Shown here: positions 31,175 to 44,763 of the stretch, piece after piece
Layout of the letters: every line of letters begins with the position of its first letter
Position numbering within the stretch: position 1 is the first letter of the stretch
Assembly (NCBI GenBank): GCA_910583745.1
Contig: CAJTZC010000004.1
Span: 21,548-85,547 of the forward strand
Reading direction: 5' to 3'
From: an uncultured Bacilli bacterium
GTDB taxonomy: Bacteria; Bacillota_I; Bacilli_A; RF39; UBA660
DNA length: 64,000 nucleotides
Translations under genes and position numbers: made by a program
Notes under the pieces: model-generated
Databases searched by the model: none
What the model saw: the letters and a program-made list of their open reading frames with translations, nothing else
Told to the model about the DNA's origin: nothing

Positions 31175-32758
31175 TTAAATCTTTATGAATGGTTTATCAG
31201 ACATTATCATTTTTGCATTTACCTGTTCCATAATGCGATAAGCAATTGCTAATGCCATTATTAAGTCATCATGTTTACCCTGTTGAGCTTCAGGACGACC
31301 TTTTTCGTTTCTAATAAATGTTAATGCTTCTTCTAATGTTGGTATATCATTGATATTGTCTATTTCTTCTCTTAAGATTCTTACTAACTCAGCAATAATT
31401 ACTGGTCTTGTAACTAGCGTTGTTTTGAATCCATATGATTTTTCTTTTCTTCCCGTTATTTTGTCTTCTTTTTCCCTAACATATTGTTTAGGATATCTGT
31501 ATTTCTGAAGCTCTTTAATTGGATAAGAACTAAAATTTGCTTCAATGCCTAGCAGTGCTATGTTGTAGTATCTTCCTAGACAGTACATTTGCTTTGCGTA
31601 TAAATCCTCGTCTATTTTTCCCCACAGAACAGCAACTTGTTTACCTGTAAAGTTTTCTATGACTTGTCCCGCGAATTTGTCGCTACCTTCTCCTGCCGTA
31701 TCACCGCCGATTCCATATTGGATATTTGGTCGTGGTTTTTGATATATTTTAATGATTCCTTTTGGGTCATCAATCCATCTAATATTAGAGATAACATTAT
31801 TGTGAAAATCATAAACAAAAGAACCTTGTTTAATAGGTTCTTTACGTTTTCTTAATTCTTCTATTCGCTTAATTATTAGTTTCTTATCAAATATGCACTC
31901 GCCAGTACTTAAAAATGCCTCTTCTGGACATATGGGATACTCTTGATTGAAGTATTCAATGTTCCCATCACAGTTGTTCTTTATACACCATCTACGCCAA
32001 GCAAGTTGCTCATCAGTTAGATTATATAAGAGTTTTAGCTCTTGCTCTTCAGTGGTAAACTCAAATCCGTTATAAGGCATACTGTATTCATCCAATTCGT
32101 TCCAGCCTATAAACAAAGGTACAAAATCATTTTCTTTATTGACTGCTTTGTCCCACATGTCTTTAAAATCATCAAAGCCATTTGCTGTCGATTCGATGAT
32201 TATCATTGTATTTGGTAGATTTGGTACTGACTGAAGTAGACCAATGAGTTGTTCTTTTTTATTTTTACCCCAAAAGGCATATTCAGAGATGTGAAGATTA
32301 TTAAATGTATCGGAACGTCCAATTCCGTCTCCTCCAGCGGTCATAACTTTAATTTTACTTTTTAAACCTGTACCATCTTCTTTATCAAAAACTAACTCTT
32401 TAGCATTTGATGCTTTTTTATTAGGTTTTAGCTCTTGTGGCAGACATTCATACATCAGTTTACTCATGTTGAACAAGTTGTTAGTTGAATCATCTTTGTG
32501 TGCCACTATACCACTGTTCACATTAAAATGAGTTACCGTATCTTTAAAGATAATGGATTCTGTTAATGTACTGAATCCCATTTGTCGCGCTTTAAGAATG
32601 ATTATTCTTACTGGTTTATTAAGTTGCTTTTGACGTTTAATTTCGTCGTATAATCTTTGCTGTGGTTTATTTAGCTTTAATGGGACTATCTCACTTTGCT
32701 TATTTCTTATCTTAATGAACTGCTCAATATATTTTTTTGTATTAATATTCATTTTCAC
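31175..32758 (-). CDS. Terminase large subunit
   Basis: 527 aa. Walker-A-like region near the N-terminus and a nuclease-domain-like C-terminus. Its start overlaps terS. Confidence 0.7.
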   Translation of the reverse strand: MKMNINTKKYIEQFIKIRNKQSEIVPLKLNKPQQRLYDEIKRQKQLNKPVRIIILKARQMGFSTLTESIIFKDTVTHFNVNSGIVAHKDDSTNNLFNMSKLMYECLPQELKPNKKASNAKELVFDKEDGTGLKSKIKVMTAGGDGIGRSDTFNNLHISEYAFWGKNKKEQLIGLLQSVPNLPNTMIIIESTANGFDDFKDMWDKAVNKENDFVPLFIGWNELDEYSMPYNGFEFTTEEQELKLLYNLTDEQLAWRRWCIKNNCDGNIEYFNQEYPICPEEAFLSTGECIFDKKLIIKRIEELRKRKEPIKQGSFVYDFHNNVISNIRWIDDPKGIIKIYQKPRPNIQYGIGGDTAGEGSDKFAGQVIENFTGKQVAVLWGKIDEDLYAKQMYCLGRYYNIALLGIEANFSSYPIKELQKYRYPKQYVREKEDKITGRKEKSYGFKTTLVTRPVIIAELVRILREEIDNINDIPTLEEALTFIRNEKGRPEAQQGKHDDLIMALAIAYRIMEQVNAKMIMSDKPFIKI

Positions 32759-33212
32759 TCATTGCTTGTTTGAGTGTTTCTTCATAGCCTATATTTAAAT
32801 TACCGTTTATATTTGTAACATATTGACCGTCCATTTTATTTAATGTGTCTAAGGCAGTTATCTTTGTTTTTAACGTAGAAGGAAATTCTTGTTCTATTAA
32901 TTTACTATTTCCTTCAGCGTCTGTTTTTACTACTGCTGTTTTTTCTTTTATTTCTCCAGAGATAACTTGAGATAACCATTCTTTTCGTTCAATAGCACTC
33001 ATTATTGCTCTTTCTTCTGATTTATCTCTTGCTTTTTTTAAGAGTTCATCATACCTAGACTTTATATCTACCTTATTAAATAATCTAGAGGCAACTCTGT
33101 CTATTGATTCATCTTTCATCTTAGAAGCGTTATAAGATTTTTTATATGCTTCTCTTTGGGACATGCCTTTGATTAGATTTTGAACAAATTTTTCTTGTTT
33201 TATTGTTAGCAT
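32742..33212 (-). CDS. Terminase small subunit
   Basis: 156 aa. The N-terminal HTH-like region (QEKFVQNLIKGMSQREAYKKSY) is typical of P27-family TerS. It overlaps the terL start. Confidence 0.55.
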   Translation of the reverse strand: MLTIKQEKFVQNLIKGMSQREAYKKSYNASKMKDESIDRVASRLFNKVDIKSRYDELLKKARDKSEERAIMSAIERKEWLSQVISGEIKEKTAVVKTDAEGNSKLIEQEFPSTLKTKITALDTLNKMDGQYVTNINGNLNIGYEETLKQAMSENEY

Positions 33213-33559
33213 TATTTGTCACTTCCTATCGAACTAATAGCGCCAGTTTTTATGAACACGCTTAACATCTTTTCAAACTGTAATGCTATCCAGTCAATTA
33301 ATTCTTCGTTTTTGGCATAATAACTTTCGTTATCTAAACCGCTTTCAAAGAAAAATGCGTGAATAATCTCATGCCTTAATGTTTCTTTTTGACAATACTC
33401 TAAATTTTCCAAACTATCATCGACTTTTTCAAATTTTCTTATCACTATTTCTTTAATACTAAAATCTATATAACCGTTTAAGTCTTTGAGTTTTGGATAG
33501 TCTTTTTCTTCAGCGTCCATTACTATGTTGTACTCTGTCCCTAGTATGTTTGTTTTCAT
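33212..33559 (-). CDS. Hypothetical protein (115 aa) with an HEIIH motif
   Basis: ORF upstream of terS with an ATGA overlap. Confidence 0.4.
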   Translation of the reverse strand: MKTNILGTEYNIVMDAEEKDYPKLKDLNGYIDFSIKEIVIRKFEKVDDSLENLEYCQKETLRHEIIHAFFFESGLDNESYYAKNEELIDWIALQFEKMLSVFIKTGAISSIGSDK

Positions 33560-33659
33560 ATTATCAGCTCTTTCTATGCTTCTTATTAGTTTTATCTGCT
33601 ATTTTAATATATTGTGTTACCATTACACCATCCCGCTAATGTATTTATCTTTATTTTCT

Positions 33660-34715
33660 TTAATCGATAAATTCCGAATAAGAATTTCCGCATTCACATC
33701 TATAAACCATTATATCTCCATCGGGATAACTCGTATACGAGTGTGGATTTGTTTCAGTATAAGTTCTAGCATTACATGTGCTTTTGACATTTGTACAAGT
33801 ATAGGTTGTAGTGTGTGTTCCATCATTGTTGTCCGTACTTCCATCATTTCTATAAGTGTGTTCTCCGTGAAGAACAGCTTCTAGATTTTCTTTGGTCAAA
33901 TCGCACTTTTTCACATAGTCTTTTTCTAATTTGGCAATTATGTGTAATAAACCCTCTTTATTCACTAATTTACTCACTGTTGAACTAGGAACATATTTAT
34001 GTTCATGCGGATTCGCAAATATTTCGTCTATTTCATCATTTGTCAAAAATTCTAGTTCGGGAGTATCGCCTTCGGGACCTCTTAAAGATTCCAGCTGTTC
34101 AGGAGTAAAATCTTCGTAAGTAAAAGAGTCTCCCTTTTCGCCCTGAATACCTTGTTTTCCCTGTGGTCCTTGAATACCTTGTTCGCCAGGTTCTCCCTTT
34201 GGGCCTTGAGGACCAATTTCGCCTTGTGGACCTGTCTCTCCAGTATCCCCTTTTTCACCTTTTTCGCCTCTTGGCAGTACTAAACTAAGCACATTATCTT
34301 CTATGCTAGCTGCAGCTTCTTCGCCAGTTTCCACTGTTCCTATTTCTAAAGAATATCTAGATGGTCTGTCTAAGGTTGTGCCTTCAGGTAACAAAGTAAA
34401 ATAAGCCGGTGTTTCGTCTGTAAAGCCTACTAAAGTCTTTTCGTCATTTAAAGATATTTCATACCAATAATCTTTTTTTCTGTTTAACATATTCCCTATT
34501 TTCATAGTTTCAAAATCAATTTCGATTGTATAAGAATCGCAATCTTTGTCTATTGTAAATTTTTCAAATACAATTGGTTTTTCATTTAGTTTTCTTGCAC
34601 TATAAATGGCAAATGAGATTACATCATATTTTTTAAAGTCATATTCTATTGGATATACAAGCTTATCGCCTCTTTGATGATAGACTTGCTTTGTATCTTT
34701 ATCTATTTCTGTCAT
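33660..34715 (-). CDS. Collagen-like triple-helix repeat protein with a Cys-rich C-terminal domain
   Basis: Sixteen consecutive Gly-X-Y triplets (GEKGEKGDTGETGPQGEIGPQG...) and a C-terminal CxC/CxxC cluster. Confidence 0.7.
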   Translation of the reverse strand: MTEIDKDTKQVYHQRGDKLVYPIEYDFKKYDVISFAIYSARKLNEKPIVFEKFTIDKDCDSYTIEIDFETMKIGNMLNRKKDYWYEISLNDEKTLVGFTDETPAYFTLLPEGTTLDRPSRYSLEIGTVETGEEAAASIEDNVLSLVLPRGEKGEKGDTGETGPQGEIGPQGPKGEPGEQGIQGPQGKQGIQGEKGDSFTYEDFTPEQLESLRGPEGDTPELEFLTNDEIDEIFANPHEHKYVPSSTVSKLVNKEGLLHIIAKLEKDYVKKCDLTKENLEAVLHGEHTYRNDGSTDNNDGTHTTTYTCTNVKSTCNARTYTETNPHSYTSYPDGDIMVYRCECGNSYSEFID

Positions 34716-34878
34716 ATGTATCGTCCTTTCTTTGATTTTTATTTTTGACTACAACGCAGCTAGTAAGTAACATCGAAGTTACGTGAAAGGAGTTTTACCA
34801 ACCTTTGTAATCACAAATAAAAATAGAACTACGAATAGTTCTATCGTTGTGCGTGCGAAGCACATACAATATATTGCA

Positions 34879-34954
34879 TTTGGCAGTCAATGTCAGACTC
34901 GAACTGACAACCTTCAGGTATTCGCCTGCTACTCTATCCGATTGAGCTAATTGA
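34879..34954 (-). tRNA. tRNA-like gene with a non-canonical anticodon arm (possible pseudo-tRNA or unusual tRNA)
   Basis: Perfect 7-bp acceptor stem (AGTCAAT/ATTGACT), a D arm, a T arm (GTCAG-TTCGAGT-CTGAC) and encoded CCA. The anticodon region GCAGGCGAATACCTGAA cannot form a 5-bp stem with a 7-nt loop. The best pairing is CAGG/CCTG with a 6-nt loop CGAAUA. Confidence 0.45.
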
Positions 34955-35009
34955 CTATAAGGCGTCCCTATCGGAATTGAACCGAAAATCTAGAATGACC
35001 ACAGGGACA

Positions 35010-35084
35010 TGTGGTTGCCCCTCGTGGATTCGAACCACGGAATATCAGAGTCAAAGTCTGATGCCTTACCACTTGGCTAAGGAG
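35010..35084 (-). tRNA. tRNA-Gln (anticodon UUG), phage-encoded
   Basis: Manual fold: acceptor TGCTCCT/AGGGGCA with U1:A72, anticodon stem TCAGA/TCTGA, loop CUUUGAC, T arm CGTGG-TTCGAAT-CCACG, encoded CCA. Confidence 0.8.
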
Positions 35085-35480
35085 CAATAAATGTATCTTA
35101 ATAGATAGTATACTAAAGCATGTACATTGACTGCATTACTTGTTATTCTATTTGCGCTAAAACATCACTGAATAACAATACGGTAGGAAGGTGACTTACT
35201 TCCTCGCAGTATTTACCATTTTCAACATGCATTTAGTACACTCCCTATTAAGTAGTGCTCATTTCATAAAGCTGGTATGAAATGAAAAAAAATAAAAAGG
35301 GGTTGGAATATTACTTGTGTGTAATGTTCCACCAAAAATGGAACCACTAGTGTATAGCGATTCCATTATAGAAATTATAGCACAAAAAAGTGGACATTTC
35401 AATCATTTTTTTTAAATAATTCAATTTCAAAAGTAAATTGAGAAAAACGAACAATATGTACAATTTAGTCTGACATTATT

Positions 35481-35524
35481 GTTGTCAAGGGCGAACGAAG
35501 AGAGCCAGGCTCGACCCTTGACAA
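35481..35524. other. Perfect 11-bp inverted repeat GTTGTCAAGGG ... CCCTTGACAAC with a 22-nt loop in the early/late intergenic region
   Basis: Read directly; no T-run on either side. Confidence 0.5.
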
Positions 35525-35861
35525 CACAAAAAGAACATAATGGATTAAGGTTAAGCACAGATTTGTGCTTAACCTTAGTTATTGTTATAATATGTCTTGA
35601 TATTTTGCTTGTAAGAAAAAAAGGAGGTACTTTCAATGAGTACAAGTAACATATATCAAAAACATAAAATTAAATAAATAAGCAAAATATCACATCTCTA
35701 AAAGTCAATTTAATTTTGCACGTTTTTCGGCAAAACCTCTTTTGCATGAAATAATTTATTTAATTTCTTCCTTATACTACCACTTTTTTATCTTTTTTAC
35801 AAATTAAAAGTGTTGGTTTCATCAATTAAAACTTACACTTTTTTCATTTAAGGCAAATTCT

Positions 35862-36641
35862 CTATTTACTTTTGAAATTCACCTTTTTTTTAAATATGTC
35901 TATAGAGTTTATAACGTTCTTATTTTGATTTTTCGCTATTTTTCTAGCCAGTTCAATTGCACGTGTATGTTTTCTTTCGGCCTCTAGTTTTTCTTGTTTA
36001 GCGTTTTCAATTTTTCTATCTTCTTCCAACATCTCTAGGTATTCCTTTTCTACTTTTCCTTTAAATTTTTCGATTTGACGTTTTTTATATAATTCTGGAT
36101 AAAACAGTCTCTCCATATCTTCTATTGTCATCGCAGGTGGGTCAATACCAAAAGTTATGTTAAAACCATACAAATCGTCAACCTCTTTTCTGTAATACAT
36201 ATAAAACCAGTGTTCGGATATACCAGTTTTTTCAGATGCTTCTTTAACGGTATCAAATGATAATATTTTATCGCTTTGATAAGAAGATATAATTACAGAG
36301 GAATTTTTAAGTCTGTTAGAGATATATCCTTTCTTACGCATTTCCGGTGTGATTATTATCTGGCCACCTTCGTGAACATTATAACCATCATTTATGCTGT
36401 CATATTTAAATATATATTCTTGTTCTTTTTTCCATGCTTCTTCTTGAGATAAACCTTTTAATAATATAATGTGTTTGAAATTGTCCCAACCGTATTTTTT
36501 TATCGCTGAGTAAAACTTTTGTTGTCCTTTATATCCTTCTCCTTTTCTCCATCTTTTTTCAGGATTTTTAGATATTCCAACATAACATTTATTAGAATCG
36601 GATTTATTAATATGGACATACACACAATAATTTTCATTCAT
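35862..36641 (-). CDS. GIY-YIG homing endonuclease
   Basis: N-terminal YCVYVHINKSDSNKCYVGIS...W is a GIY-YIG motif. 259 aa, freestanding between the early and late regions. Confidence 0.6.
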   Translation of the reverse strand: MNENYCVYVHINKSDSNKCYVGISKNPEKRWRKGEGYKGQQKFYSAIKKYGWDNFKHIILLKGLSQEEAWKKEQEYIFKYDSINDGYNVHEGGQIIITPEMRKKGYISNRLKNSSVIISSYQSDKILSFDTVKEASEKTGISEHWFYMYYRKEVDDLYGFNITFGIDPPAMTIEDMERLFYPELYKKRQIEKFKGKVEKEYLEMLEEDRKIENAKQEKLEAERKHTRAIELARKIAKNQNKNVINSIDIFKKKVNFKSK

Positions 36642-37056
36642 TCGCTATTCTCCTTATATGTCGTATGCTATATTTTACATCTGCATCTAAGAAAAGTCTA
36701 TGAATCTGTTTCCATGAGTAGCCTTTATTTCGAAAATATAATATTGTCTGCTTATAATCGTTTCGTTCTTTATTTTGAATTTCAGTTAATAATAGTTTTT
36801 GATATTCTTCAAGAGATTTTATCTTTTCTTTAACTGTTTCATCAATTTCTTTGCTAGCGATTGTATATTTCAAAAATTTGTCAAAATGTACAATTGTACT
36901 ATTAACCACAATTTCTTTTACTTTTAAACTGGTTGGTTGTGTTTTGCCAAATTTTACTTTCTTCTTTGATAATTCTTTATCTATCTCGTTAAAAAGCATT
37001 TCGATGTTTTTCGTTATATCGTCAATAGTAAGATGTTTACCTTTAGCTTCTATCAT
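36634..37056 (-). CDS. Hypothetical protein with a C-terminal HTH-like segment; candidate late-gene activator
   Basis: The C-terminal GYSWKQIHRLFLDADVKYSIRHIRRI resembles sigma region-4-like HTH. It is the last early gene before the late region. Confidence 0.3.
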   Translation of the reverse strand: MIEAKGKHLTIDDITKNIEMLFNEIDKELSKKKVKFGKTQPTSLKVKEIVVNSTIVHFDKFLKYTIASKEIDETVKEKIKSLEEYQKLLLTEIQNKERNDYKQTILYFRNKGYSWKQIHRLFLDADVKYSIRHIRRIANE

Positions 37057-37262
37057 AAATCCTCCGCAGGAAACTCATTAGTAAACTCTTCCCATACATC
37101 ATAATCTGTTTTATAAAGCCAACTTGATATTTTGCTTCTTAAATCGAATCTTCCTTGCCAAACAGCATACCTTTTATCTTCTCTTACTAAATTATAAATA
37201 ACATATATTAAACCCGCTATATATAATCCTATACATATTCCTACTATAATTCCTATTACCAT
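37053..37262 (-). CDS. Small membrane protein (69 aa, one TM)
   Basis: N-terminal hydrophobic helix. Confidence 0.4.
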   Translation of the reverse strand: MVIGIIVGICIGLYIAGLIYVIYNLVREDKRYAVWQGRFDLRSKISSWLYKTDYDVWEEFTNEFPAEDL

Positions 37263-37268
37263 CTAGTA

Positions 37269-37508
37269 TCACTCTCCCTTTAGCATAAAATGATATCTCT
37301 TATATCGCATACCGTCTAATTCTGTTGGTTTTTGTTCTAAGTTTTCTATCGACATTAGTATCTCATTAGGACACATATATTTATGTTTTCTTTTATATTT
37401 GAGTAATTCCGCATAATTATCAAATATCAACAATATATTATCGCTTTCATAACTGGGAACTATTCTAATCTGTAATAAGTTAATAATATTTTTTAGATTA
37501 TCATTCAT
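37269..37508 (-). CDS. Hypothetical protein (79 aa)
   Basis: ORF in the early gene string. Confidence 0.35.
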   Translation of the reverse strand: MNDNLKNIINLLQIRIVPSYESDNILLIFDNYAELLKYKRKHKYMCPNEILMSIENLEQKPTELDGMRYKRYHFMLKGE

Positions 37509-37670
37509 CTAGTATCACTCCTTGTCTAATAAATCATCAATCTCATCTTCTGTATAGCCTCTATAACCATAAGTACGGCTATTTTGTATTTTTTCTGTTT
37601 TACCTAAATCACTAAGTAAGAATTGTCTGTTTTCTTTGCTTGTTAGTTTACTTCTTTGCTCTTTAAACAC

Positions 37671-37901
37671 TCACATAAGTTCTATATCGTTCTTTATCTT
37701 ACGACGTGTATTTCTTGTGGTGTGTAACTCTTTTATAACTCTATAGCATTGTTTAGTACTTAATTTATTGAATTCTATTATGTGAAGTAAGTCTAATATT
37801 TTATTTTCTTCGTGAGTAAGTGACGAGTAGAGAGTTTCATCATACTCATCTAACTCATCTAGTAACTTACTTATCTCTATTACTTTATCTTTGATGTTCA
37901 T
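37671..37901 (-). CDS. Hypothetical protein (76 aa)
   Basis: ATGA overlap with the SPFH gene stop. Confidence 0.4.
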   Translation of the reverse strand: MNIKDKVIEISKLLDELDEYDETLYSSLTHEENKILDLLHIIEFNKLSTKQCYRVIKELHTTRNTRRKIKNDIELM

Positions 37902-38740
37902 TTTATGAATCCTGAAATATCTAATATATTTCCGTCTCCTGTTGCTTTAGGAAGTTCTCCGTTCCATTTTTCAATAAATTTTTCTTTAATTATGTTATCG
38001 GTTAAACTTTGTTGTTTCATTTCGTTAGCTTTTTTCTCGGCTTCTGCTTTAACAATCTTTTTTTCAGCCTCTATTTTCTCCTTCTCAAGCTCTTGTGCTG
38101 CAGCTAAAGCATTTTGCTCTGCCACTGCTTTTCGCTCAATAGAAGCGTTGTACTCTGCGCTAAAATCAAAGTTATTTATCGTTAATGATGAAATGCTAAT
38201 TCCATAATCTTTCATCTTTTCATTTAAAGTGTCAACCATCACTATTGCTATTTCTGACCTCATTGAAACTAGTTCGCTTGCATTATATTGACTGATAGTT
38301 GATTTTATTGTTTCTTGAATTGCAGGTTCTAAAACTGTTTCGTTATACTTTATGCCAACAGTTCTATATAGTTTTGGTGCCTCTTGTGAAGACAATTGAT
38401 AATTTACAGAAGCAGATATATTTGTTACTACCTGCATATCTTTTGTCGATGTTTCAAGACTATTTGCGTTTTCATATTTTTGTACTCTAACATCCATATT
38501 AACTATTTTTTCCCACGGCGCTTTTATATTAACACCCTTGCTCAAATTGTCGTCTAAGACTTTACCAAAACTTGTTTTAATCCCCACATTACCAGTTGGT
38601 ACGCTTCCTATAAAACCTGGTATTATTATCAATAAGCTAAGTAATCCTAATAAACATTTTAAATTTATTTCTTCTTCTACTACTATTATTCCTATTACTG
38701 CCACTACTGTGACTACAATTCCTATTATTAACCAAATCAT
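37898..38740 (-). CDS. SPFH/band-7 (prohibitin/HflK/C-like) membrane protein
   Basis: N-terminal TM helix. SPFH-like core (TGNVGIKTSFGKV...VNMDVRVQ). C-terminal Ala/Glu/Lys-rich coiled-coil (AAAQELEKEKIEAEKKIVKAEAEKKA) typical of band-7 proteins. Confidence 0.65.
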   Translation of the reverse strand: MIWLIIGIVVTVVAVIGIIVVEEEINLKCLLGLLSLLIIIPGFIGSVPTGNVGIKTSFGKVLDDNLSKGVNIKAPWEKIVNMDVRVQKYENANSLETSTKDMQVVTNISASVNYQLSSQEAPKLYRTVGIKYNETVLEPAIQETIKSTISQYNASELVSMRSEIAIVMVDTLNEKMKDYGISISSLTINNFDFSAEYNASIERKAVAEQNALAAAQELEKEKIEAEKKIVKAEAEKKANEMKQQSLTDNIIKEKFIEKWNGELPKATGDGNILDISGFIK

Positions 38741-38742
38741 CT

Positions 38743-38841
38743 CTATCTAACTCCTCCTAAAATTGAAATAACCCCCAAAATAATTATTGCTTTAATAACT
38801 ATTACTGCTAATAGTTCTATTAATGTAAATCCTTTTTTCAT
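38743..38841 (-). CDS. 32-aa peptide with a type IV prepilin-like N-terminus (MKKGFTLIELLAVIVIKAIIILGVISILGGVR)
   Basis: Below the ORF-track size cutoff. ATG at 38841 with an upstream GAGGAAGAG. KKGFTLIELL matches the prepilin peptidase cleavage/methylation motif. Its stop lies inside the RBS of the SPFH gene. Confidence 0.4.
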   Translation of the reverse strand: MKKGFTLIELLAVIVIKAIIILGVISILGGVR

Positions 38842-38942
38842 TTCTCTTCCTCTACTTTCTATTCCAAATTTTTATTATGTCGTTATTACACTTAACAACA
38901 AAATGTCTTCTATCGATTTCATTTGGATTCAACCTTTTAAGT

Positions 38943-39386
38943 TCATCGATTCATCATTTTTACTAGACTACTTTGACGACTAGAACTTTTGACTTTTGAA
39001 ACTTGCTTTGACTTCGTACGGTCCGGTGGTAGTATTTGGTATTTAGATAATGCTTTAACTTCTTCTTTAAGTTTCTTGTTCTCAGTTGACAATTTAGTAT
39101 TGCTGCTTTTAAAAGACCTATTAGAATTTATCAGAGATTCTATTTGTTTTATGGCTTCGTCTACTTTGTTTTCTAAAATAGATATTTGCCTTCTTAAATT
39201 TGATGTCTCATCTAAATTCAATTTTTTGAGTTCTTTTATTTTATCCTCTAGAGAATATTTTTCGTCCGTTAAAGTGCCGACATAAGCAATGTGATTCTTC
39301 TCTAGTCTTTCTATTTTTTCTTTTTGTTTCTTTTTTTCATCTTCATAGTCAGTCTGTTTAATTATTACTAAGTTAAATATTTTCAT
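38943..39386 (-). CDS. Coiled-coil protein (147 aa, Lys/Glu-rich)
   Basis: Heptad-like charged repeats. Confidence 0.45.
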   Translation of the reverse strand: MKIFNLVIIKQTDYEDEKKKQKEKIERLEKNHIAYVGTLTDEKYSLEDKIKELKKLNLDETSNLRRQISILENKVDEAIKQIESLINSNRSFKSSNTKLSTENKKLKEEVKALSKYQILPPDRTKSKQVSKVKSSSRQSSLVKMMNR

Positions 39387-39526
39387 TTCTTTTTTCCTCT
39401 TTTCTTCTTATTTTTCATAAACTTCTCGCAGTCTTTTTTACTACCCCTGAATACTTCGCTCATCGAAGAACCTTCGACAAGCCATACTACATAACATTTG
39501 TAGTAATCATCATATTCTATTTTCAT
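39383..39526 (-). CDS. Tiny ORF (47 aa), translationally coupled
   Basis: ATGA overlaps on both ends; MKIEYDDYYKCYVVWLVEG... Confidence 0.3.
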   Translation of the reverse strand: MKIEYDDYYKCYVVWLVEGSSMSEVFRGSKKDCEKFMKNKKKRGKKK

Positions 39527-39660
39527 GAATGCTCCTTTAAAATTCTTTTACATTTTTCTATTTCAAACGCAATGGATACTTTATGAAGTGGTCTTTTTTC
39601 TGCTTTATATTTAGATTCTAGCCAACATAAATATATTTGAGTTTTTAGTAATTCTTCCAT
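39523..39660 (-). CDS. Tiny ORF (45 aa), translationally coupled
   Basis: MEELLKTQIYLCWLESKYKAEKRPLHK...; overlaps its neighbours. Confidence 0.3.
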   Translation of the reverse strand: MEELLKTQIYLCWLESKYKAEKRPLHKVSIAFEIEKCKRILKEHS

Positions 39661-40151
39661 TTTCTAAATTCCTTGTCATATTCTTTCATCATCTGTTCAA
39701 ATTCTATGTCGCTTAAAGTTTTGATTCCAACATCTCGACATTCTTGCTCAACACCTTTTATAAGTTGATAGAACTCTTTTGAATTTAATTCGTGAGTCCT
39801 TTTATAAAATAGATAATATTCATTGTTTCCAACTATTCGCGATAGTCTGGTATATGGATAAATGTAACTTATGTCTTCTCCTCGAGGAATCACAACTTCA
39901 AATAATTCGCCGTTATCTTTAGTGGCTAAAGTTCCGTATGATACATTCATCATAATTTTCATATCGTCGTCTGAAATAGCATATCCGTTATTTCTGTTAT
40001 ATCTAGCAAGTTCATTTACGAGCTTGTGAAAGTATCTATTTGCTTGAGTGCCTCTCAAAGCTTTATACTCACGTAGCTCGTAAATTTTATCTTGTTTTAG
40101 ATTAATAAGTTGAAATGACAGTTCTTTAGGTGTACCAGTTATAGATTCCAT
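39645..40151 (-). CDS. Hypothetical protein (168 aa)
   Basis: ORF in the early region. Confidence 0.45.
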   Translation of the reverse strand: MESITGTPKELSFQLINLKQDKIYELREYKALRGTQANRYFHKLVNELARYNRNNGYAISDDDMKIMMNVSYGTLATKDNGELFEVVIPRGEDISYIYPYTRLSRIVGNNEYYLFYKRTHELNSKEFYQLIKGVEQECRDVGIKTLSDIEFEQMMKEYDKEFRKWKNY

Positions 40152-40346
40152 CTAATCATCCTCAATCTTGATAACGATATATCCGCTATCATTAGTTCTT
40201 TTGCGATATGCGTTAGACATATAAAACGAAATAGTATTTATACTTACGTTTAATAGATTTGCTAAATACTGCTTAGTGCCTAAATCTATAAATGTATCTC
40301 CACGATATAGTGCATAGATATTAGACTTCATTGTATTAATTCCCAC
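40152..40346 (-). CDS. Small HTH-like protein (64 aa)
   Basis: LANLLNVSINTISFYMS looks helix-turn-helix-like. Confidence 0.35.
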   Translation of the reverse strand: MGINTMKSNIYALYRGDTFIDLGTKQYLANLLNVSINTISFYMSNAYRKRTNDSGYIVIKIEDD

Positions 40347-40876
40347 TTATATCTATCATTTTCATAAGCATTATTTTTTATCTTGTTCGATAAATACTTT
40401 TCATTTTGATTTATCAGTTTACTTCCTTGAACTAAACTTGACGGATATATAACTGTGCCAGTTATTTTATCTTCGATTTTAACTTTTATTTGCGATGAAG
40501 CTAATCCGGTTCTGAATGCATGTTGTATGTTTTCTTTTATTGATACTAATTCTAAATTGCTTAATTTATTATTAAATCTGTTACCGTCAATATGATTAAC
40601 AGTTAAATTATGATTATTGATATCTTGACCATAGAATGTAAATGCTACTAGCCTAGCAACTAACAAGGTATGAGGTTTTCCGTCTTTCCACAAATCCACT
40701 CTGTATCCTGTTTTAGCAGATTTGCTTTTGTATTTTAAAATTCTATCTTTCCACCGTCTAATTTTATAAAGAGAAGAACTGGATATTTTGTTATGAGTTC
40801 TAACTTGACCTAGATTACTAACCTGATATCCTTCAAAATTTGGAATATCTAACCATACTTCATTCAAACTAATCAT
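40328..40876 (-). CDS. HNH homing endonuclease (NUMOD4/HNH_3-like)
   Basis: VWLDIPNFEGYQVSNLGQVRT is an NUMOD4-like N-terminus. HIDGNRFNNKLSNLE is an HNH motif. Confidence 0.6.
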   Translation of the reverse strand: MISLNEVWLDIPNFEGYQVSNLGQVRTHNKISSSSLYKIRRWKDRILKYKSKSAKTGYRVDLWKDGKPHTLLVARLVAFTFYGQDINNHNLTVNHIDGNRFNNKLSNLELVSIKENIQHAFRTGLASSQIKVKIEDKITGTVIYPSSLVQGSKLINQNEKYLSNKIKNNAYENDRYKWELIQ

Positions 40877-40879
40877 CTC

Positions 40880-41335
40880 CTAACTGAAAGGTAGCATATC
40901 ATCAGTAATCGTTATTTCGCTCGCGAAAGCTTCGTAGGGGTCTTCTTTAACTATGGCTTGCACTTGTTCAACTGGCTGTGTTGATTGTAATTGAGGTTGC
41001 GTTTGAATTTGTGTCTCTGTTCGTGGTCTATTATCGTGAAAGTCAATATTGCTGACATATACCACTGTTTTACTTACGTTTGTACCATCTTGTTTTTGAT
41101 ATTTGCTAGTTCTTATAGAACCAATGATTCCAATTTTGTGACCTTTCTTGCAATACTTTGATACTGCTTCAGCCTTAGAATTCCAAAAAATACATTCAAT
41201 AAAATCGGCGGTTCTTGTTCCATCTTGATTTTTGGGACGGTCTACTGCTATTGATACACTGACATATTTTTTGCCGTTTGCCTCTTTCAATTCAGGCTCT
41301 GAACATAAACGACCTGATAATACTGTAAAATTCAT
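40880..41335 (-). CDS. ssb: Single-stranded DNA-binding protein
   Basis: OB-fold N-terminus, Gln/Pro-rich linker, and an acidic C-terminal tail ending DDMLPFS. Confidence 0.75.
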   Translation of the reverse strand: MNFTVLSGRLCSEPELKEANGKKYVSVSIAVDRPKNQDGTRTADFIECIFWNSKAEAVSKYCKKGHKIGIIGSIRTSKYQKQDGTNVSKTVVYVSNIDFHDNRPRTETQIQTQPQLQSTQPVEQVQAIVKEDPYEAFASEITITDDMLPFS

Positions 41336-41406
41336 ACTTTTTCTCCTCTCAAATAATTTAGTTAGAAAGACGAAGAGTCGTCTTTCTGTTCACTTTATTT
41401 TATTGT

Positions 41407-42027
41407 TTACTTTTCTGTCAGTGAGCTGCGTTTTAGTTTGATAACTGGAGCGACCGCACCGCTGCTATCGACAAGGTAGTAGTCCAAATTGCCGCTACTA
41501 TTGACACTGAACACACTAGCATAGCCGACAGAATTCAAGTTATGAGGCGAGAACGACCAGAAAAGGTATTTGCATTTATTTTCTTTTAAAGATTTTGGAA
41601 GCCTAAATAATTCTTCAACCGATAATAATCTTACATAGTCTTTAGTTGTACTTGATTCTCCATCTAGCCAAACTGTACTAGTCATAGGCACTAGACTATC
41701 TTTGTCTAGCATCTTTAAGAATCTATCATTAAGCCTTTTTCGTATGATACTATTCTTCCATCTCCAGTCACTTGAATCTGAATTGAATTTAACATCATAG
41801 TCTGAATCGTATTCATCGCTATTAAATACTTTTTTTATGATATCCGGACTTAAGCATTTTTTCATTAATAGTGTTAAGCTCTCACTATCCTCTGCTATAA
41901 CATTCCAGTCAAACCCACAAAATTTGACTTCTCTAAATAGTCCTACACCTGTATTTTTAGTAGCTAAGTCTTCTCTAACATAGACTGTATCTACTCCGTT
42001 ATTCGTTAATGTAATTTTTTCATTCAT
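41407..42027 (-). CDS. Hypothetical protein (206 aa)
   Basis: ORF. Confidence 0.45.
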   Translation of the reverse strand: MNEKITLTNNGVDTVYVREDLATKNTGVGLFREVKFCGFDWNVIAEDSESLTLLMKKCLSPDIIKKVFNSDEYDSDYDVKFNSDSSDWRWKNSIIRKRLNDRFLKMLDKDSLVPMTSTVWLDGESSTTKDYVRLLSVEELFRLPKSLKENKCKYLFWSFSPHNLNSVGYASVFSVNSSGNLDYYLVDSSGAVAPVIKLKRSSLTEK

Positions 42028-42028
42028 A

Positions 42029-42262
42029 TTAATTAATCTCCTTTATTTCTAAAATATCTTCTATTTTTACATCAAACATTTCCATATCGCTTTCTTCTCC
42101 ATTTTCAACAAGTTCTCTAGCTTGTTCTTCGGATTCAGCATATACTGTTAATTTAGCTTTAAAAGACATGTCAGCTGTAAATTCATAACATTTTTCTTTA
42201 TCTTCAGGAGCCTCAGGATATGAACCTGCTCCTGCTTCTACTGTATCAATTGTGTTTGTCAT
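42029..42262 (-). CDS. Highly acidic small protein (77 aa); possible DNA-mimic or anti-defence protein
   Basis: About 30 percent Asp+Glu, with no basic patches. Confidence 0.4.
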   Translation of the reverse strand: MTNTIDTVEAGAGSYPEAPEDKEKCYEFTADMSFKAKLTVYAESEEQARELVENGEESDMEMFDVKIEDILEIKEIN

Positions 42263-42768
42263 TACTTCACAACCTTTACTTCATATCCTAAAACTTTGCT
42301 TATTTCTTCGACTGTCATTTCTCTTACATCTTGACGTTCAAAGATTATTTGACCTTCACGTTCAACTTTCATAATATCGTATTCAGCAAAAGAACTATCT
42401 CTAGTTAAATTTTCTCTAAAATCTGCTTTTACTGTGTCTGCATCGCAATGATAATGATAGCCTTCGCCATAAATGTGATTATCTGTATATACATATCTTT
42501 CGCCATTTCTTAAAGTTAAAATGTCTGCGAATTGTAAATCACTGATTGTCAAAACAACATTTTCAAGCATATCGTCTGTCCAATACCATTCTGGAAAGCC
42601 ATCAGTCCTTTTAGCTTCCTTTAAAATATAGCAATCGTCTTCAATAGCTTTTATTGTCATTATTTGGCCTTTATAGCTTGTCATCTTGTTGCTAACATAT
42701 ATTTTGTATTCTCGACCTTCTTTTAAATCTTTTCTAACGCGAATCTTGTCGCCTATTTTATATTTCAT
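42262..42768 (-). CDS. Hypothetical protein (168 aa)
   Basis: ORF with an ATGA overlap. Confidence 0.45.
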   Translation of the reverse strand: MKYKIGDKIRVRKDLKEGREYKIYVSNKMTSYKGQIMTIKAIEDDCYILKEAKRTDGFPEWYWTDDMLENVVLTISDLQFADILTLRNGERYVYTDNHIYGEGYHYHCDADTVKADFRENLTRDSSFAEYDIMKVEREGQIIFERQDVREMTVEEISKVLGYEVKVVK

Positions 42769-43384
42769 TTATATTTCCTTCTTTCTTAAGTTTATTTAGT
42801 ATTTCCAATATCTCCCCTGTACTCTTTCTTTTGATTTCAACTAGCTCACCATAACCACGTTTAGGTAGCCATATTGCATACAACTTATCAAACTGTTTTG
42901 TGTGATACATGCACATGTAAGCAAATTCATATAAACTCAATTGCCATGATAGATACTCTTTATCTAGTTGTGCAGTCGTTTTAATGTCGCATAAACTTAA
43001 TTTACCTTTAACTCTTGCTATCATATCGAATCGCCCTGCATAATCGTCGTTATAGTTAATCATTTGTTCTTGAGTAATAACATTTATCTGTTTAAAATCT
43101 TTAAGCCTTATGTATTGCCTTAAACTAAAGATTTGGTTTTCATCTAACTCTAATTTGTGAACCGTGTCGAGATAAGCTTTTTCTAACCCTTTTTGAACTC
43201 TTATATTTTCATAATGTTCAATCGACTCATGTACTTTAGAACCATATTCAGCTTTTTTATTTAACGTGGCAAGGTCTACCCCCTCGTATTTCTTTGGGAA
43301 TATAAAGTGTAAGATTTCACTCACACTAGGTATTATCATCCCGTCGTATAAATAAGTGTGTGTTTCTTCTATGAACTCAATCAT
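42758..43384 (-). CDS. PD-(D/E)XK family nuclease (phage exonuclease-like)
   Basis: GRFDMI ... LCDIKT matches the D...(D/E)xK catalytic pattern. Adjacent to the ssb and recombination genes. Confidence 0.5.
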   Translation of the reverse strand: MIEFIEETHTYLYDGMIIPSVSEILHFIFPKKYEGVDLATLNKKAEYGSKVHESIEHYENIRVQKGLEKAYLDTVHKLELDENQIFSLRQYIRLKDFKQINVITQEQMINYNDDYAGRFDMIARVKGKLSLCDIKTTAQLDKEYLSWQLSLYEFAYMCMYHTKQFDKLYAIWLPKRGYGELVEIKRKSTGEILEILNKLKKEGNINEI

Positions 43385-43701
43385 TAATCCAAAATTTTAA
43401 CCGTTACCGAACTTGCTACTGGACTAGTTTTTGAATATTCCTCGTAAATGTCAGGACATTCTTCTTTAAGACGTTTAGTGTCTACTGAAGTTCGTGATGT
43501 TCCTTTCTTGTAAGTAAATACGATTCCATGGGATTCGAGATTGGTTTTGCCTAGCTCTTCCATTAAATCTTTAACTCTTTGATTTACTTCTTTAGTACCT
43601 AACTCGAGTTTTTTTTGAAGACGTAGTAACTCTTTGTAGTCTTCTGCGTATTGTTCATCAAGTACTAAGCTTCCGTTTTCAACTTTTACTAACTCATTCA
43701 T
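43384..43701 (-). CDS. Hypothetical protein (105 aa)
   Basis: ORF. Confidence 0.4.
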   Translation of the reverse strand: MNELVKVENGSLVLDEQYAEDYKELLRLQKKLELGTKEVNQRVKDLMEELGKTNLESHGIVFTYKKGTSRTSVDTKRLKEECPDIYEEYSKTSPVASSVTVKILD

Positions 43702-44321
43702 TATGCTACTGTCTCTACTTTCTTTTTCTTTGAAATTAGACTACTTGCTTCCTGAACTGTTAAGTCCTCAATTTTTTCTTTTTTAACTAATTCTAACGCT
43801 TTAGTAATTTCTTCTGAAGTAAATATACTCTTTATCACTTCTATTTGTTTGTCAGTTGCTTTGACTATTTTTTGCTGAACGGTTTTCTGTTGAACTGGCT
43901 TTTGCGTTGGTTGCAGAGCTTTAGATTTATCTCCGGTAGTTGGGTCAAACATATCATTTTCTGTAATATCGAATGCTGACATATACAAGTATCTTCTTGA
44001 GTATGTTTCTACACCACCTAGAGCTTGTATTTGATTGCAGCCTTTTAATTCTAAGTCTCTCATAGGACTTGTATATTCTTCAAATTGTTCTTGTTTGTCA
44101 CTATTTACGATTCTTAGAGTTGCCACTTCGTTTGTAAAAGTTACTTTAGTAAACAGCCCTACCTCATTGCAAAGCCTTATAACTGTAGGAATAAAATCTC
44201 CTAATTCGTAATATTTAAATCCTGCGAATTTATTTTCTCCGGTTTGAGTTAAATTGCTCTCTAATAATTTTTGTTTAACTAGTTGAATCTTTTTCCAAAG
44301 ACTCATATTTGCGTAATCCAT
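43701..44321 (-). CDS. Possible single-strand annealing / recombination protein (206 aa)
   Basis: Context only: it sits between the DnaB-like helicase and the PD-(D/E)XK nuclease. No family motif recognised. Confidence 0.25.
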   Translation of the reverse strand: MDYANMSLWKKIQLVKQKLLESNLTQTGENKFAGFKYYELGDFIPTVIRLCNEVGLFTKVTFTNEVATLRIVNSDKQEQFEEYTSPMRDLELKGCNQIQALGGVETYSRRYLYMSAFDITENDMFDPTTGDKSKALQPTQKPVQQKTVQQKIVKATDKQIEVIKSIFTSEEITKALELVKKEKIEDLTVQEASSLISKKKKVETVA

Positions 44322-44330
44322 ATTTTTCTC

Positions 44331-44603
44331 CTATTCTACGAAAGTACACATTCTAGATGATAACTGCCATTTAGCACCTTTATCATCAGTAATTAAGTAC
44401 TCTTCGTCTTCTATTTTTTTAATTTCGTTTATTTTTATTTCTAGCGATTCGCCATTCATTGAGCAAATTGCCTTTGTGTATTTTGGTGTATTTATGTAAT
44501 CGTAAAAGTGCTTTGTTCCTAGAATTAAACCTAAGAATCCAGCTAGCGCTAACACACATATTGTGATTCGCATTATTGAATCTTTTATATCTTCGTATGT
44601 CAT
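44331..44603 (-). CDS. Small membrane protein (90 aa)
   Basis: One TM helix. Confidence 0.4.
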   Translation of the reverse strand: MTYEDIKDSIMRITICVLALAGFLGLILGTKHFYDYINTPKYTKAICSMNGESLEIKINEIKKIEDEEYLITDDKGAKWQLSSRMCTFVE

Positions 44604-44763
44604 TTTAAAATCCTTTCAATGACTCTTATACTCTCTTTAACTTGTTGTTTTTCTAATTCGTATTCAATTTTATTTGTTTCGTCCTTTGCATCTAATGCTT
44701 TAGTTTTTAAATAAATAAAGTATCCAAACAATTGATTTCGAATAGTCTTTAACTCTGTTCTTG

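What the first reader, a model, noticed from the sequence alone, without database searches (positions are those of the whole stretch)
37671..38841. Prophage-encoded SPFH/band-7 membrane protein preceded by a 32-aa type-IV-prepilin-like peptide
37898..38740 has an N-terminal TM helix, an SPFH core and a flotillin-like AEKK coiled-coil. Directly upstream is an unannotated 32-codon ORF (38743..38841) encoding MKKGFTLIELLAVIVIKAIIILGVISILGGVR. That is a prepilin peptidase cleavage/methylation motif (KKG|FTLIEL) with no globular pilin domain. Its stop lies inside the SPFH gene's RBS. A pilin-N-terminus mimic coupled to a membrane-scaffold protein in a phage early region is unusual. Possible roles are interference with competence/type IV pili (superinfection exclusion or DNA-uptake block), or a membrane-remodelling or abortive function.
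Basis: partly seen in the sequence, partly recalled or inferred. Interest (0 to 1): 0.7.

Follow-up and report, generated by a model that had tools for sequence, protein, structure and literature searches.

The report
Phage-encoded headless prepilin mini-gene
A prophage carries a real, conserved 32-codon gene that encodes only the signal and membrane helix of a type IV pilin, and it sits in front of interchangeable membrane proteins (here a prohibitin-like SPFH protein), which makes it a candidate viral decoy for the host's pilus or DNA-uptake machinery.

Summary
Window 38743-38841(-) encodes MKKGFTLIELLAVIVIKAIIILGVISILGGVR. It scores above the curated cut-offs of Pfam N_methyl and TIGR02532. 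The next gene, 37898-38740(-), is a prohibitin-type SPFH protein. Both lie in the early operon of a ~39.7-kb tRNA-Ala prophage.

The peptide is not a chance ORF. I found eight distinct 30-34-aa homologues in phage and prophage contigs from low-GC gut bacteria. Their flanks are unrelated, all indels are in frame, and purifying selection is strongest on the prepilin motif (pN/pS 0.16).

The "peptide + SPFH pair" is not a fixed unit. Only one other SPFH locus of about 30 has the peptide. Elsewhere the peptide precedes LemA or an unrelated 129-aa anchored protein, and the closest SPFH relative (81% identity) lacks it.

The best reading is a stand-alone "headless prepilin" that heads a variable membrane-protein cassette. 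It is probably cleaved by the host prepilin peptidase and probably interferes with competence pili or type IV pili. That function is inferred, not shown. I could not test whether the host has a pilus system, and the gene's place in the lytic operon weakens lysogen-protection scenarios.

The family is unnamed and I found no description of it. I rate it a new variant of a known kind, of moderate to high interest.

The parts
38743..38841 (-). 32-codon 'headless prepilin' gene. It has leader MKKG, a predicted cleavage site G4|F5, Glu at mature position 5, a hydrophobic alpha1N-like helix and a C-terminal GGVR. There is no globular pilin domain.
   Evidence: ORF and translation. PF07963 24.4 bits above GA. 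TIGR02532 24.7 bits above cut-off. Eight homologues, with pN/pS 0.16 on the motif and only in-frame indels. phmmer against 1.84e9 representatives returns only 32-33-aa homologues.
38844..38853 (-). Shine-Dalgarno-like AGAGGAAGAG upstream of the peptide ATG.
   Evidence: Read from the sequence. Every homologue also has a purine-rich SD 5-9 nt upstream of its ATG.
38751..38757 (-). GGAGGAG Shine-Dalgarno of the SPFH gene. It is embedded in peptide codons Gly29-Gly30-Val31, so this stretch is dual-use.
   Evidence: Sequence. The same GGAGG lies inside the last codons of all homologues, usually as the junction GGAGGnnTnAGATAATG.
37898..38740 (-). 280-aa prohibitin-type SPFH/Band 7 membrane protein (phrog_200). 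It starts 2 nt after the peptide stop.
   Evidence: Band_7 E 1.7e-33. PDB prohibitin-2 E 7e-31. phrog_200 E 1.5e-52. Two N-terminal hydrophobic segments.
37515..37901 (-). Gene X, the conserved gene that follows the cassette in the window, L033 and L011. In the window it is split into 76-aa and 51-aa ORFs by an in-frame TGA at 37671-37673.
   Evidence: Alignment with the single ORFs L011 10526-10906 and L033 3484-4068. phrog_32601.
11323..51040 (.). Host prophage of about 39.7 kb, bounded by a 24-bp direct repeat at the 3' end of tRNA-Ala. The peptide and SPFH lie in its minus-strand early (replication) operon.
   Evidence: Direct repeat CATTCTGGTGGAGGATGTGGGATT at 11323 and 51017. tRNA-Ala 51022-51098. 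Integrase, S24 repressor, DnaB and CHAP lysin. ERF, SSB and terminase.

Best explanation
The 32-codon ORF is a real, translated gene. It belongs to a rare, unnamed family of 30-34-aa 'headless prepilins'. Each member has a class III (prepilin-type) signal peptide, a single hydrophobic helix of the alpha1N kind and a short GGxR/Q tail.

The family is carried by temperate phages whose relatives occur in low-GC gut Firmicutes MAGs (labelled Bacilli, Erysipelotrichaceae and similar). The gene is a ~100-bp unit that heads a small membrane-protein cassette at the end of the early region. The gene behind it is interchangeable: a prohibitin-type SPFH protein here, LemA plus a 2-TM protein elsewhere, or a 129-aa anchored protein elsewhere. 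It is always N-terminally membrane-anchored, and its SD is embedded in the peptide's last codons.

Mechanism, all inferred:
- The peptide inserts N-in/C-out.
- The host prepilin peptidase (ComC/PilD) cleaves after Gly4 and methylates Phe.
- The 28-residue stem-only product enters the membrane pilin pool.
- There it disturbs the host type IV filament machinery (competence pseudopilus or T4P), either as a non-productive subunit or as a competitor for the peptidase or platform.
- The outcome would be reduced pilus-dependent phage adsorption or DNA uptake during phage development.

The SPFH protein is a separate, co-transcribed membrane scaffold, not an obligate partner.

What is shown: the gene, the family, the selection pattern, the variable partners and the context. 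What is inferred: processing, target and phenotype.
For: Motif:
- All eight members exceed the Pfam N_methyl gathering score. The three members scanned against NCBIfam also exceed the TIGR02532 cut-off, and their next-best NCBIfam hits are the N-termini of ComGC, ComGD, ComGE and ComGF.
- The closest solved chains are the short stem-only pilins annotated Geopilin domain 1 (PilA-N; 9egp, 7tgg).

Coding and selection:
- ORF nucleotide identity between contexts is 65-78%, while the flanks are at about 30%, the random level.
- All length differences are in frame.
- Invariant residues show synonymous variation (I: ATA/ATT/ATC; E: GAA/GAG; L: TTA/TTG).
- pN/pS is 0.16 on the motif, 0.57 on the rest of the helix and 0.42 on the tail.
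- The peptide is 79% identical between the window and L033, while their SPFH proteins are only 42% identical.

Independence from the partner:
- There are three unrelated downstream partners.
- SPFH and LemA relatives mostly lack the peptide.
- L010's SPFH has the same N-terminal double anchor without any peptide.

Precedent and background:
- PfsE of phage Pf4 is a 30-residue, N-in inner-membrane peptide that blocks T4P by binding PilC (PMC8764522).
- comG operons are reported across Erysipelotrichales (PMC12786226).
- MAGs carrying related prophages are labelled Bacilli, Erysipelotrichaceae or similar.
Against: - No pilus, competence or prepilin-peptidase gene was seen in the window or in any fetched locus. 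Host identity is only approximate, so the existence of a target is assumed.
- The gene lies in the lytic early operon, about 9.5 kb from the repressor, with no promoter or terminator signal above background. Expression in the lysogen, which classic superinfection exclusion or anti-curing needs, is therefore doubtful.
- One lineage (L088/L089) keeps a 26-aa leaderless derivative, MFSFLINTLAILIIIIIIIMILGGIK, in front of LemA. It has no Gly(-1) and has Asn in place of Glu5. The ORF can therefore persist without the prepilin features.
- The constant presence of an N-terminally anchored protein downstream suggests a link to the partner that the decoy model does not explain.
- The window's copy has a Lys in mid-helix (K17) where the others have L, F, M or I, and it has the lowest motif score in the family. 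It may be a weakened allele.
Confidence: 0.38

Rival explanations
1. The peptide is a small transmembrane accessory subunit or assembly factor for whichever N-terminally anchored scaffold protein follows it (SPFH, LemA or the 129-aa protein). It would pack against the partner's anchor helix and help build a phage-induced membrane structure, for exclusion at the membrane, abortive infection or membrane remodelling. On this view the prepilin-like N-terminus reflects ancestry, or only serves to trim the N-terminus.
For: In all three independent contexts the next gene encodes an N-terminally anchored membrane protein. The stop overlaps the next start (TAATG), with the partner's SD inside the peptide ORF. 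The leaderless, Glu5-less derivative is still kept in front of LemA. LemA (the MamQ family) and prohibitins are both, from general knowledge, membrane-organising proteins.
Against: The three partners share no detectable similarity (Pfam). Each partner family mostly occurs without the peptide, and L010's SPFH has the same anchor with no peptide. Purifying selection is strongest on the peptidase-recognition motif, not on the helix body that would contact a partner. The peptide is far more conserved than its SPFH partner, 79% against 42%.
Confidence: 0.25
2. The ORF is mainly a cis-acting translational device. It would be an upstream ORF whose translation delivers ribosomes, or the mRNA, to the start of the downstream membrane-protein gene. 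The peptide product itself would be dispensable.
For: The downstream SD (GGAGG) and the stop/start overlap form the most rigidly conserved DNA of the unit, including in the degenerate L088/L089 form. The conserved GG residues can be explained by the SD alone.
Against: A pure coupling device would not keep Gly(-1), Phe1, Ile4, Glu5 and Leu7 invariant through synonymous changes, with pN/pS of 0.16. It would also not be retained at 65-78% nucleotide identity in front of three unrelated genes. Partner homologues are expressed from ordinary SDs without it.
Confidence: 0.1
3. The peptide is a membrane-active toxin-like or holin-like peptide, comparable to type I toxins of about 30 aa. It would depolarise the membrane, with the scaffold protein modulating it, as an abortive-infection or lysis-timing module.
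For: Its size, extreme hydrophobicity and charged ends resemble small membrane toxins (sequence). It is found in phage accessory regions rich in small membrane proteins.
Against: It is far from the lysis genes (CHAP lysin at 13267-14022). There are no PADLOC or PHROG matches. The specific, selected prepilin motif has no role in such toxins. No antitoxin RNA or regulatory element was detected.
Confidence: 0.1
4. The ORF is a non-functional remnant of a captured pilin gene's 5' end, or a chance ORF.
For: It is only 32 codons long. The window allele has a mid-helix Lys and the weakest motif score in the family. One lineage shows decay of the motif.
Against: There are eight homologues in unrelated flanks with intact frames, their own SDs and dN/dS below 1. 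The motif occurs in 0 of 100 shuffles. The P0004 allele recurs with identical sequence in 23 contigs read, listed in 35 index blocks.
Confidence: 0.05

Closest known systems
Type IV pilins and pseudopilins, especially Gram-positive competence pilins ComGC/ComGD/ComGE/ComGF (Pfam PF07963, TIGR02532)
   Same: The short basic leader ends in Gly, followed by Phe+1, Glu+5 and a hydrophobic helix of about 20 residues. Scores are above the curated cut-offs of both N-terminal motif models. The next-best NCBIfam hits are the ComG pilin N-termini.
   Different: The protein stops after about 28 mature residues, so it has no alpha1C and no globular domain. It is encoded in a phage early operon with no assembly ATPase, platform or peptidase gene nearby. 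It reaches none of the full-length ComG model cut-offs.
Geobacter-type split pilin PilA-N ('Geopilin domain 1'; PDB 7tgg, 9egp)
   Same: These are the best solved-structure matches (E 3e-5 to 1e-4). From general knowledge, PilA-N is a truncated, mostly helical pilin encoded immediately upstream of a separate membrane-targeted protein (PilA-C) that supplies the head.
   Different: PilA-N is about 60 residues when mature and retains alpha1C, whereas this peptide is half that length. The downstream SPFH, LemA and 129-aa proteins are unrelated to PilA-C and to each other. No filament machinery is linked.
PfsE of filamentous phage Pf4, and other phage T4P inhibitors such as Tip and Aqs1 (the latter two from general knowledge)
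   Same: PfsE is a 30-residue phage-encoded inner-membrane peptide, oriented N-in, that shuts down T4P and excludes pilus-dependent phages (PMC8764522). It shows that a peptide of this size can do the proposed job.
   Different: PfsE has no prepilin motif. It acts through a YAWGW aromatic cluster that binds PilC, and it comes from a Gram-negative inovirus. There is no sequence similarity. The mode proposed here, substrate or subunit mimicry, would be different.
Flp/Tad pilins
   Same: They are very short pilins that lack a globular head (noted for Erysipelotrichales Tad pilins in PMC12786226).
   Different: From general knowledge, Flp pilins use a G/xxxxEY processing motif and the TadV peptidase, have mature lengths of about 40-60 aa, and sit in tad operons. 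This family has the GFTLIE type IVa/Com-type motif and no tad genes.
Prohibitin / HflK-HflC / QmcA SPFH scaffolds (for the partner gene)
   Same: It has a Band_7 domain, an N-terminal anchor and a C-terminal coiled coil. Prohibitin-2 matches at E 7e-31. Phage homologues are annotated 'prohibitin family protein'.
   Different: No NfeD gene is adjacent and no FtsH link could be tested. It falls below the HflC equivalog cut-off (40.7 against 134.4 bits). Its role in phages is unknown.

Membership tests
Type IV pilin-like proteins (class III signal peptide) | Short positively charged leader ending in Gly(-1) | tested here: met
   The leader is MKKG|F. The Gly is invariant in 8 of 8 members.
Type IV pilin-like proteins (class III signal peptide) | Hydrophobic +1 residue (Phe) and Glu at +5, within an N_methyl/GFxxxE motif above curated thresholds | tested here: met
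   PF07963 scores 22.2-35.2 bits against GA 21.2. TIGR02532 scores 24.7-31.2 bits against 16.3.
Type IV pilin-like proteins (class III signal peptide) | Alpha1C helix plus globular C-terminal domain | tested here: not met
   The ORF ends 28 residues after the predicted cleavage site in all members.
Type IV pilin-like proteins (class III signal peptide) | Cleavage and N-methylation by a prepilin peptidase | not testable with these tools
   This needs biochemistry. The presence of a host peptidase gene could not be checked.
Type IV pilin-like proteins (class III signal peptide) | Genomic linkage to type IV filament assembly genes (ATPase, platform, peptidase) | tested here: not met
   None were found in the 64-kb window or in the flanks of any homologue. 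The neighbours are phage replication genes, homing endonucleases and membrane proteins.
SPFH / Band 7 (prohibitin subfamily) | Band_7 domain above the Pfam gathering score | tested here: met
   116.6 bits against 23.6, covering profile positions 3-176 of 176.
SPFH / Band 7 (prohibitin subfamily) | N-terminal membrane anchor and C-terminal coiled coil | tested here: met
   Hydrophobic segments at residues 2-20 and 29-47. Residues 191-248 align to the prohibitin-2 coiled-coil fragment 6iqe.
SPFH / Band 7 (prohibitin subfamily) | Operon partner NfeD, or functional coupling to an FtsH-type protease | tested here: not met
   No NfeD domain was found in the neighbouring ORFs. FtsH coupling is not testable here.
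   Only 2 of about 30 SPFH loci carry the peptide. The peptide also occurs with LemA and with the 129-aa protein.
PfsE-like T4P inhibitors | Conserved aromatic YxWGW cluster that mediates PilC binding | tested here: not met
   No member has an aromatic cluster. The PfsE motif is taken from PMC8764522.
Flp/Tad pilins | G/xxxxEY processing motif and a tad operon context | tested here: not met
   The motif here is G|FTLIEL, with no Tyr after the Glu, and there are no tad genes.
Known anti-phage defence systems (PADLOC) | Profile match of any cassette protein | tested here: not met
   The peptide, the SPFH proteins and the 280-aa protein gave no hits. LemA and the upstream 147-aa protein gave only weak coiled-coil-type matches (E 5e-4 or weaker, under 17 bits).

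The most novel reading that the evidence does not exclude
Phages of low-GC gut bacteria encode a subunit mimic of the host's type IV filament. It is a stem-only prepilin that the host's own prepilin peptidase matures. It then poisons or caps competence or type IV pili, or acts as an adaptor that brings variable membrane scaffolds (SPFH, LemA) to the pilus assembly site. This would be a first viral anti-pilus or anti-competence factor that works by pilin mimicry rather than by binding the ATPase or platform.
Probability: 0.3. Interest if true: 0.8.

Novelty: new variant of a known kind. Interest (0 to 1): 0.6.

Why it matters
If the peptide is processed by the prepilin peptidase and blocks pili, it would be the smallest known pilin-like gene product. 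It would also be a new way for a virus to interfere with type IV filaments, by mimicking a subunit or substrate.

This bears on superinfection exclusion and on the conflict between prophages and natural transformation in gut Firmicutes. A 28-residue peptide of this kind is easy to synthesise and mutate, so it could also serve as a probe or inhibitor of prepilin peptidases and pilus assembly.

Even if that function is wrong, the data define a conserved, unnamed family of phage micro-proteins. The family also shows that the SPFH gene is one of several interchangeable membrane cargo genes.

Tried and rejected
Searches that found nothing or could not run:
- blastn of the region against INPHARED phages gave no match.
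- Promoter and terminator scans around the cassette in the window and in L078 were at background level, so moron-type independent expression can be neither shown nor excluded.
- PADLOC gave no hit for the peptide and no credible hit for any cassette protein. PHROGs has no family for the peptide.
- Rfam found no RNA family over the ORF.
- The L060 129-aa protein has no relatives in IMG/VR and no similarity to LemA.
- Walking the host contig through asnB found only metabolic genes and no pilus genes.

False positives, rejected after translation:
- The DNA-pattern scans returned several ordinary pilins and one methyltransferase.
- The full-length pilin-like genes in IMG/VR contigs (L034-L049, L068-L076) are 79-334 aa and are not family members.

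Ideas considered and rejected:
- A -1 frameshift fusion of the peptide to the downstream protein. The downstream gene is always in the -1 frame, but there is no slippery heptamer at any junction.
- A holin role. The lysis genes are 25 kb away.
- An NfeD-like partner role. There is no homology, and SPFH relatives lack any conserved upstream small ORF.
Full report
**1. Observation**

Window 38743-38841 on the minus strand is a 32-codon ATG ORF that encodes MKKGFTLIELLAVIVIKAIIILGVISILGGVR. A purine-rich SD (AGAGGAAGAG, 38853-38844) precedes it. A 101-nt gap separates it from the upstream 147-aa coiled-coil gene.

The peptide scores above the curated cut-offs of both N-terminal pilin motif models:
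- Pfam N_methyl PF07963: 24.4 bits against 21.2.
- NCBIfam TIGR02532: 24.7 bits against 16.3.

The back-translated motif occurs once in the 64-kb window and in none of 100 dinucleotide-preserving shuffles. No other pilin-like motif is present in the window.

The next gene, 37898-38740(-), starts 2 nt after the peptide's TAG stop. Its SD, GGAGGAG (38757-38751), lies inside peptide codons 28-30. It is an SPFH protein:
- Band_7 at E 1.7e-33 over residues 47-222.
- phrog_200.
- Two N-terminal hydrophobic segments.
- Closest solved relatives are prohibitin-2 and prohibitin-1 (E 7e-31), with HflC and QmcA only weak.

It is therefore prohibitin-like rather than flotillin-like.

**2. Context**

The element is a ~39.7-kb prophage bounded by a 24-bp direct repeat at 11323 and 51017. 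The second copy overlaps the 3' end of tRNA-Ala. The prophage carries an integrase, an S24/HTH repressor, DnaB, ERF, SSB, a terminase, a DUF859 tail protein and a CHAP lysin.

The peptide and SPFH lie on the same strand as the replication genes, about 9.5 kb downstream of the repressor switch and near the end of the early region. Promoter-like and terminator-like sites are at the level expected from shuffles.

The flanking chromosome encodes TypA, CysRS, a Clp ATPase, AsnB and an NPCBM/F5_F8 surface protein. The AsnB gene also occurs in two NCBI MAGs. GC content is 34%. MAGs that carry related prophages are labelled Bacilli, Erysipelotrichaceae, 'Tenericutes', Bacillales or Clostridia.

**3. 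Is the small ORF a gene?**

The exact peptide and SPFH occur together in the 6 metagenome contigs read, and gene callers had called the ORF there. Searches by degenerate patterns, by partner proteins and by phmmer against 1.84 billion representative proteins recovered seven further distinct homologues of 30-34 aa:

| Source | Sequence |
|---|---|
| L033 | MKNKGFTLIELLATIVILAIIILTIVGGLR |
| L011 / P0004 | MDNKGFSLIEILSVIILFAIMLITIIAILGGIR |
| L053 | MNNKGFTLIELLATIIIMTIVILIAVQSLGGLR |
| L087 | MNNKGFTLIELLSIIIIFMIIILTIISFVLGGIQ |
| P0001 / P0002 | MKNKGFTLIELLAVIIILAIVVMMVLS[M/T]IGGVR |
| P0003 | MKRGFTIIELLATIVIIAILVIIIISILGGIR |

The phmmer search returned only these short proteins at E of 1e-3 or better. 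All members pass the N_methyl threshold. None carries a name in any source, and PHROGs has no family for them.

Comparative signals of coding:
- ORF nucleotide identity between contexts is 65-78%.
- The 120 nt on either side are at about 30% identity, the random level for this composition.
- All length differences are whole codons.
- Invariant residues are encoded by different synonymous codons.
- Pooled Nei-Gojobori pN/pS is 0.16 for the motif columns (KGFTLIELLA), 0.57 for the rest of the helix and 0.42 for the tail.

The pairs are not phylogenetically independent, so these are descriptive ratios, not tests. Even so, the ORF is a translated gene under purifying selection, and that selection is strongest on the prepilin-peptidase recognition motif. 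No Rfam family overlaps it.

**4. Is it a pair with SPFH?**

No. Of 6 viral and about 22 genomic loci with SPFH relatives (49-81% identity), none has the peptide or any conserved small ORF upstream of SPFH.
- L010 (81% identity) has the same double N-terminal anchor directly behind an unrelated gene.
- L012 (72%) follows a uracil-DNA glycosylase.
- L033 does repeat the peptide-SPFH arrangement. However, its SPFH is only 42% identical to the window's, while the peptides are 79% identical.
- In L011-type phages SPFH sits 3 kb upstream without a peptide. There the peptide is the first gene of a cassette made of LemA (PF04011, phrog_1383), a 266-280-aa 2-TM protein (phrog_3886) and a 31-aa TM peptide. 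The 10 distinct places shown, from 23 contigs read, have two different upstream flanks.
- L053 and L087 share the LemA arrangement.
- In a third phage group the order is lipoprotein (189 aa), peptide, then a 125-129-aa N-terminally anchored protein with no family match.

In the window, L033 and L011, the same gene X follows the cassette. The cassette therefore occupies one syntenic slot with exchangeable cargo. LemA relatives at 69% identity or less lack the peptide.

The constant features are three. The peptide comes first. The next gene always encodes an N-terminally anchored membrane protein. The junction is GGAGGnnTnAGATAATG, with the SD inside the peptide's Gly-Gly codons and the stop overlapping the start. 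In the window the junction is TAGAGATG.

**5. A telling variant**

In L088 and L089 (LemA 76% identical to L011's), the position is occupied by a 26-codon ORF, MFSFLINTLAILIIIIIIIMILGGIK. It has its own SD and the same 3' junction. It has no leader and no Gly(-1), it has Asn in place of Glu5, and it gives no motif hit. This is either a decaying copy or a leaderless version that resembles the mature peptide. It shows that the hydrophobic ORF and its SD can persist without the prepilin features. That keeps the partner-linked and uORF explanations alive.

**6. Mechanism**

Shown:
- A conserved, selected micro-gene that encodes only a class III signal peptide and an alpha1N-like helix.
- Variable membrane cargo behind it.
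- A location in the phage early operon.

Inferred:
- N-in/C-out insertion, based on 2-3 N-terminal Lys against one C-terminal Arg.
- Cleavage after Gly4 and methylation of Phe by the host ComC/PilD.
- Interference with the type IV filament machinery, as a stem-only subunit or as a competitor.

Support for the inference comes from three observations:
- Selection is focused on the motif.
- The next-best model hits are competence pilin N-termini, and the best solved matches are the stem-only PilA-N pilins.
- PfsE is a precedent: a 30-residue, N-in phage peptide that blocks T4P through PilC (PMC8764522).

As background, comG operons are reported across Erysipelotrichales (PMC12786226), and the conflict between prophages and transformation is well documented (PMC12378983; PMC4774983 and PMC12637031, listed).

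Against the inference:
- No pilus or peptidase gene could be tied to these hosts with the available tools.
- The lytic-operon position argues against roles that need expression in lysogens.
- The downstream-anchor association and the L088 variant are not explained by the decoy model.
- The window allele carries an unusual mid-helix Lys.

I therefore put the decoy/mimic model at about 0.38. The accessory-subunit model is at 0.25, a pure translational-coupling uORF at 0.1, a membrane toxin at 0.1 and a remnant or chance ORF at 0.05.

**7. Comparison with known systems**

The peptide meets the N-terminal definition of type IV pilin-like proteins. It fails two other defining features: a globular domain, and linkage to assembly genes. 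It should therefore not be filed as a pilin.

It works most like, but is not a member of, the PfsE class of small phage T4P inhibitors, because it has no YAWGW motif. It differs from Flp pilins in motif and context. It is about half the length of the mature Geobacter PilA-N (mature length from general knowledge). Like this peptide, PilA-N is followed by a separately encoded membrane protein.

The SPFH gene is an ordinary member of the phage 'prohibitin family' group. Literature searches found no description of phage-encoded stem-only prepilins.

**8. Verdict**

The interesting object is the peptide family, not the SPFH pair. I rate it a new variant of a known kind, with interest of about 0.6. 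The function is a testable hypothesis, not a result.

Noticed in passing
window 37515-37901 (-), TGA at 37671-37673: The 76-aa and 51-aa ORFs downstream of SPFH are collinear with single ORFs in L011 (10526-10906) and L033 (3484-4068). In the window the gene is interrupted by one in-frame TGA, with the same gene calls in the related contigs L007 and L008. This could be a nonsense mutation, a readthrough site or a recoded codon.
   Followed up: partly
window 34881-34956 (-) and 35012-35086 (-): The prophage carries two tRNA genes between the GIY-YIG gene and the collagen-like gene. One is tRNA-Gln(TTG). The other scores 48.5 bits with the Rfam tRNA model but appears to have a 6-nt anticodon loop (CGAAUA), so ARAGORN cannot name its anticodon. 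It does not look like a UCA suppressor.
   Followed up: partly
L088 1241-1321 and L089 2905-2985: A leaderless 26-aa derivative of the peptide (MFSFLINTLAILIIIIIIIMILGGIK) lies upstream of LemA. It has lost Gly(-1) and Glu5 but keeps its own SD, the hydrophobic body and the GGAGG/TAAATG junction. A 57-aa TM ORF overlaps its start.
   Followed up: partly
L011 9063-10518; L053 107-1474; L077-L086: A conserved phage cassette consists of LemA (phrog_1383, MamQ-like), a 266-280-aa protein with N- and C-terminal TM segments (phrog_3886) and a 31-aa TM peptide. Its function is unknown. It occupies the same slot, upstream of gene X, as SPFH does in the window.
   Followed up: partly
window 38943-39386 (-): The 147-aa coiled-coil protein just upstream of the peptide gives sub-threshold hits to ZapB (24.6 against 31.5 bits) and YabA (22.6 against 30). 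It might target host division or replication initiation.
   Followed up: no
window 11323-11346 and 51017-51040: A 24-bp direct repeat, CATTCTGGTGGAGGATGTGGGATT, marks the prophage ends (attL/attR). The right copy overlaps the 3' end of tRNA-Ala(TGC).
   Followed up: yes
window 40328-40876 (-) and 35862-36641 (-): Two free-standing homing-endonuclease-type genes (NUMOD4/HNH_3 and GIY-YIG) lie in the early region, and a collagen-repeat protein (33660-34715) lies just before the terminase genes.
   Followed up: no
L036, L037, L039, L049 (IMG/VR contigs), about 4001-4560: Several viral contigs encode related full-length pilin-like proteins of 137-186 aa. They start MKKGFTLIELMVVI[VT]IMGILAAVAVPK and continue into a Cys-rich domain. 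Pilin-like genes with heads therefore also occur on putative phage contigs. I did not check whether these are host flanks.
   Followed up: no
L060 4431-5000; L066 19-585; L067 664-1230: A 188-189-aa predicted lipoprotein (signal peptide with a Cys lipobox) with no Pfam or PHROG match lies immediately upstream of the peptide in the third phage group. It is a candidate envelope or exclusion protein.
   Followed up: no
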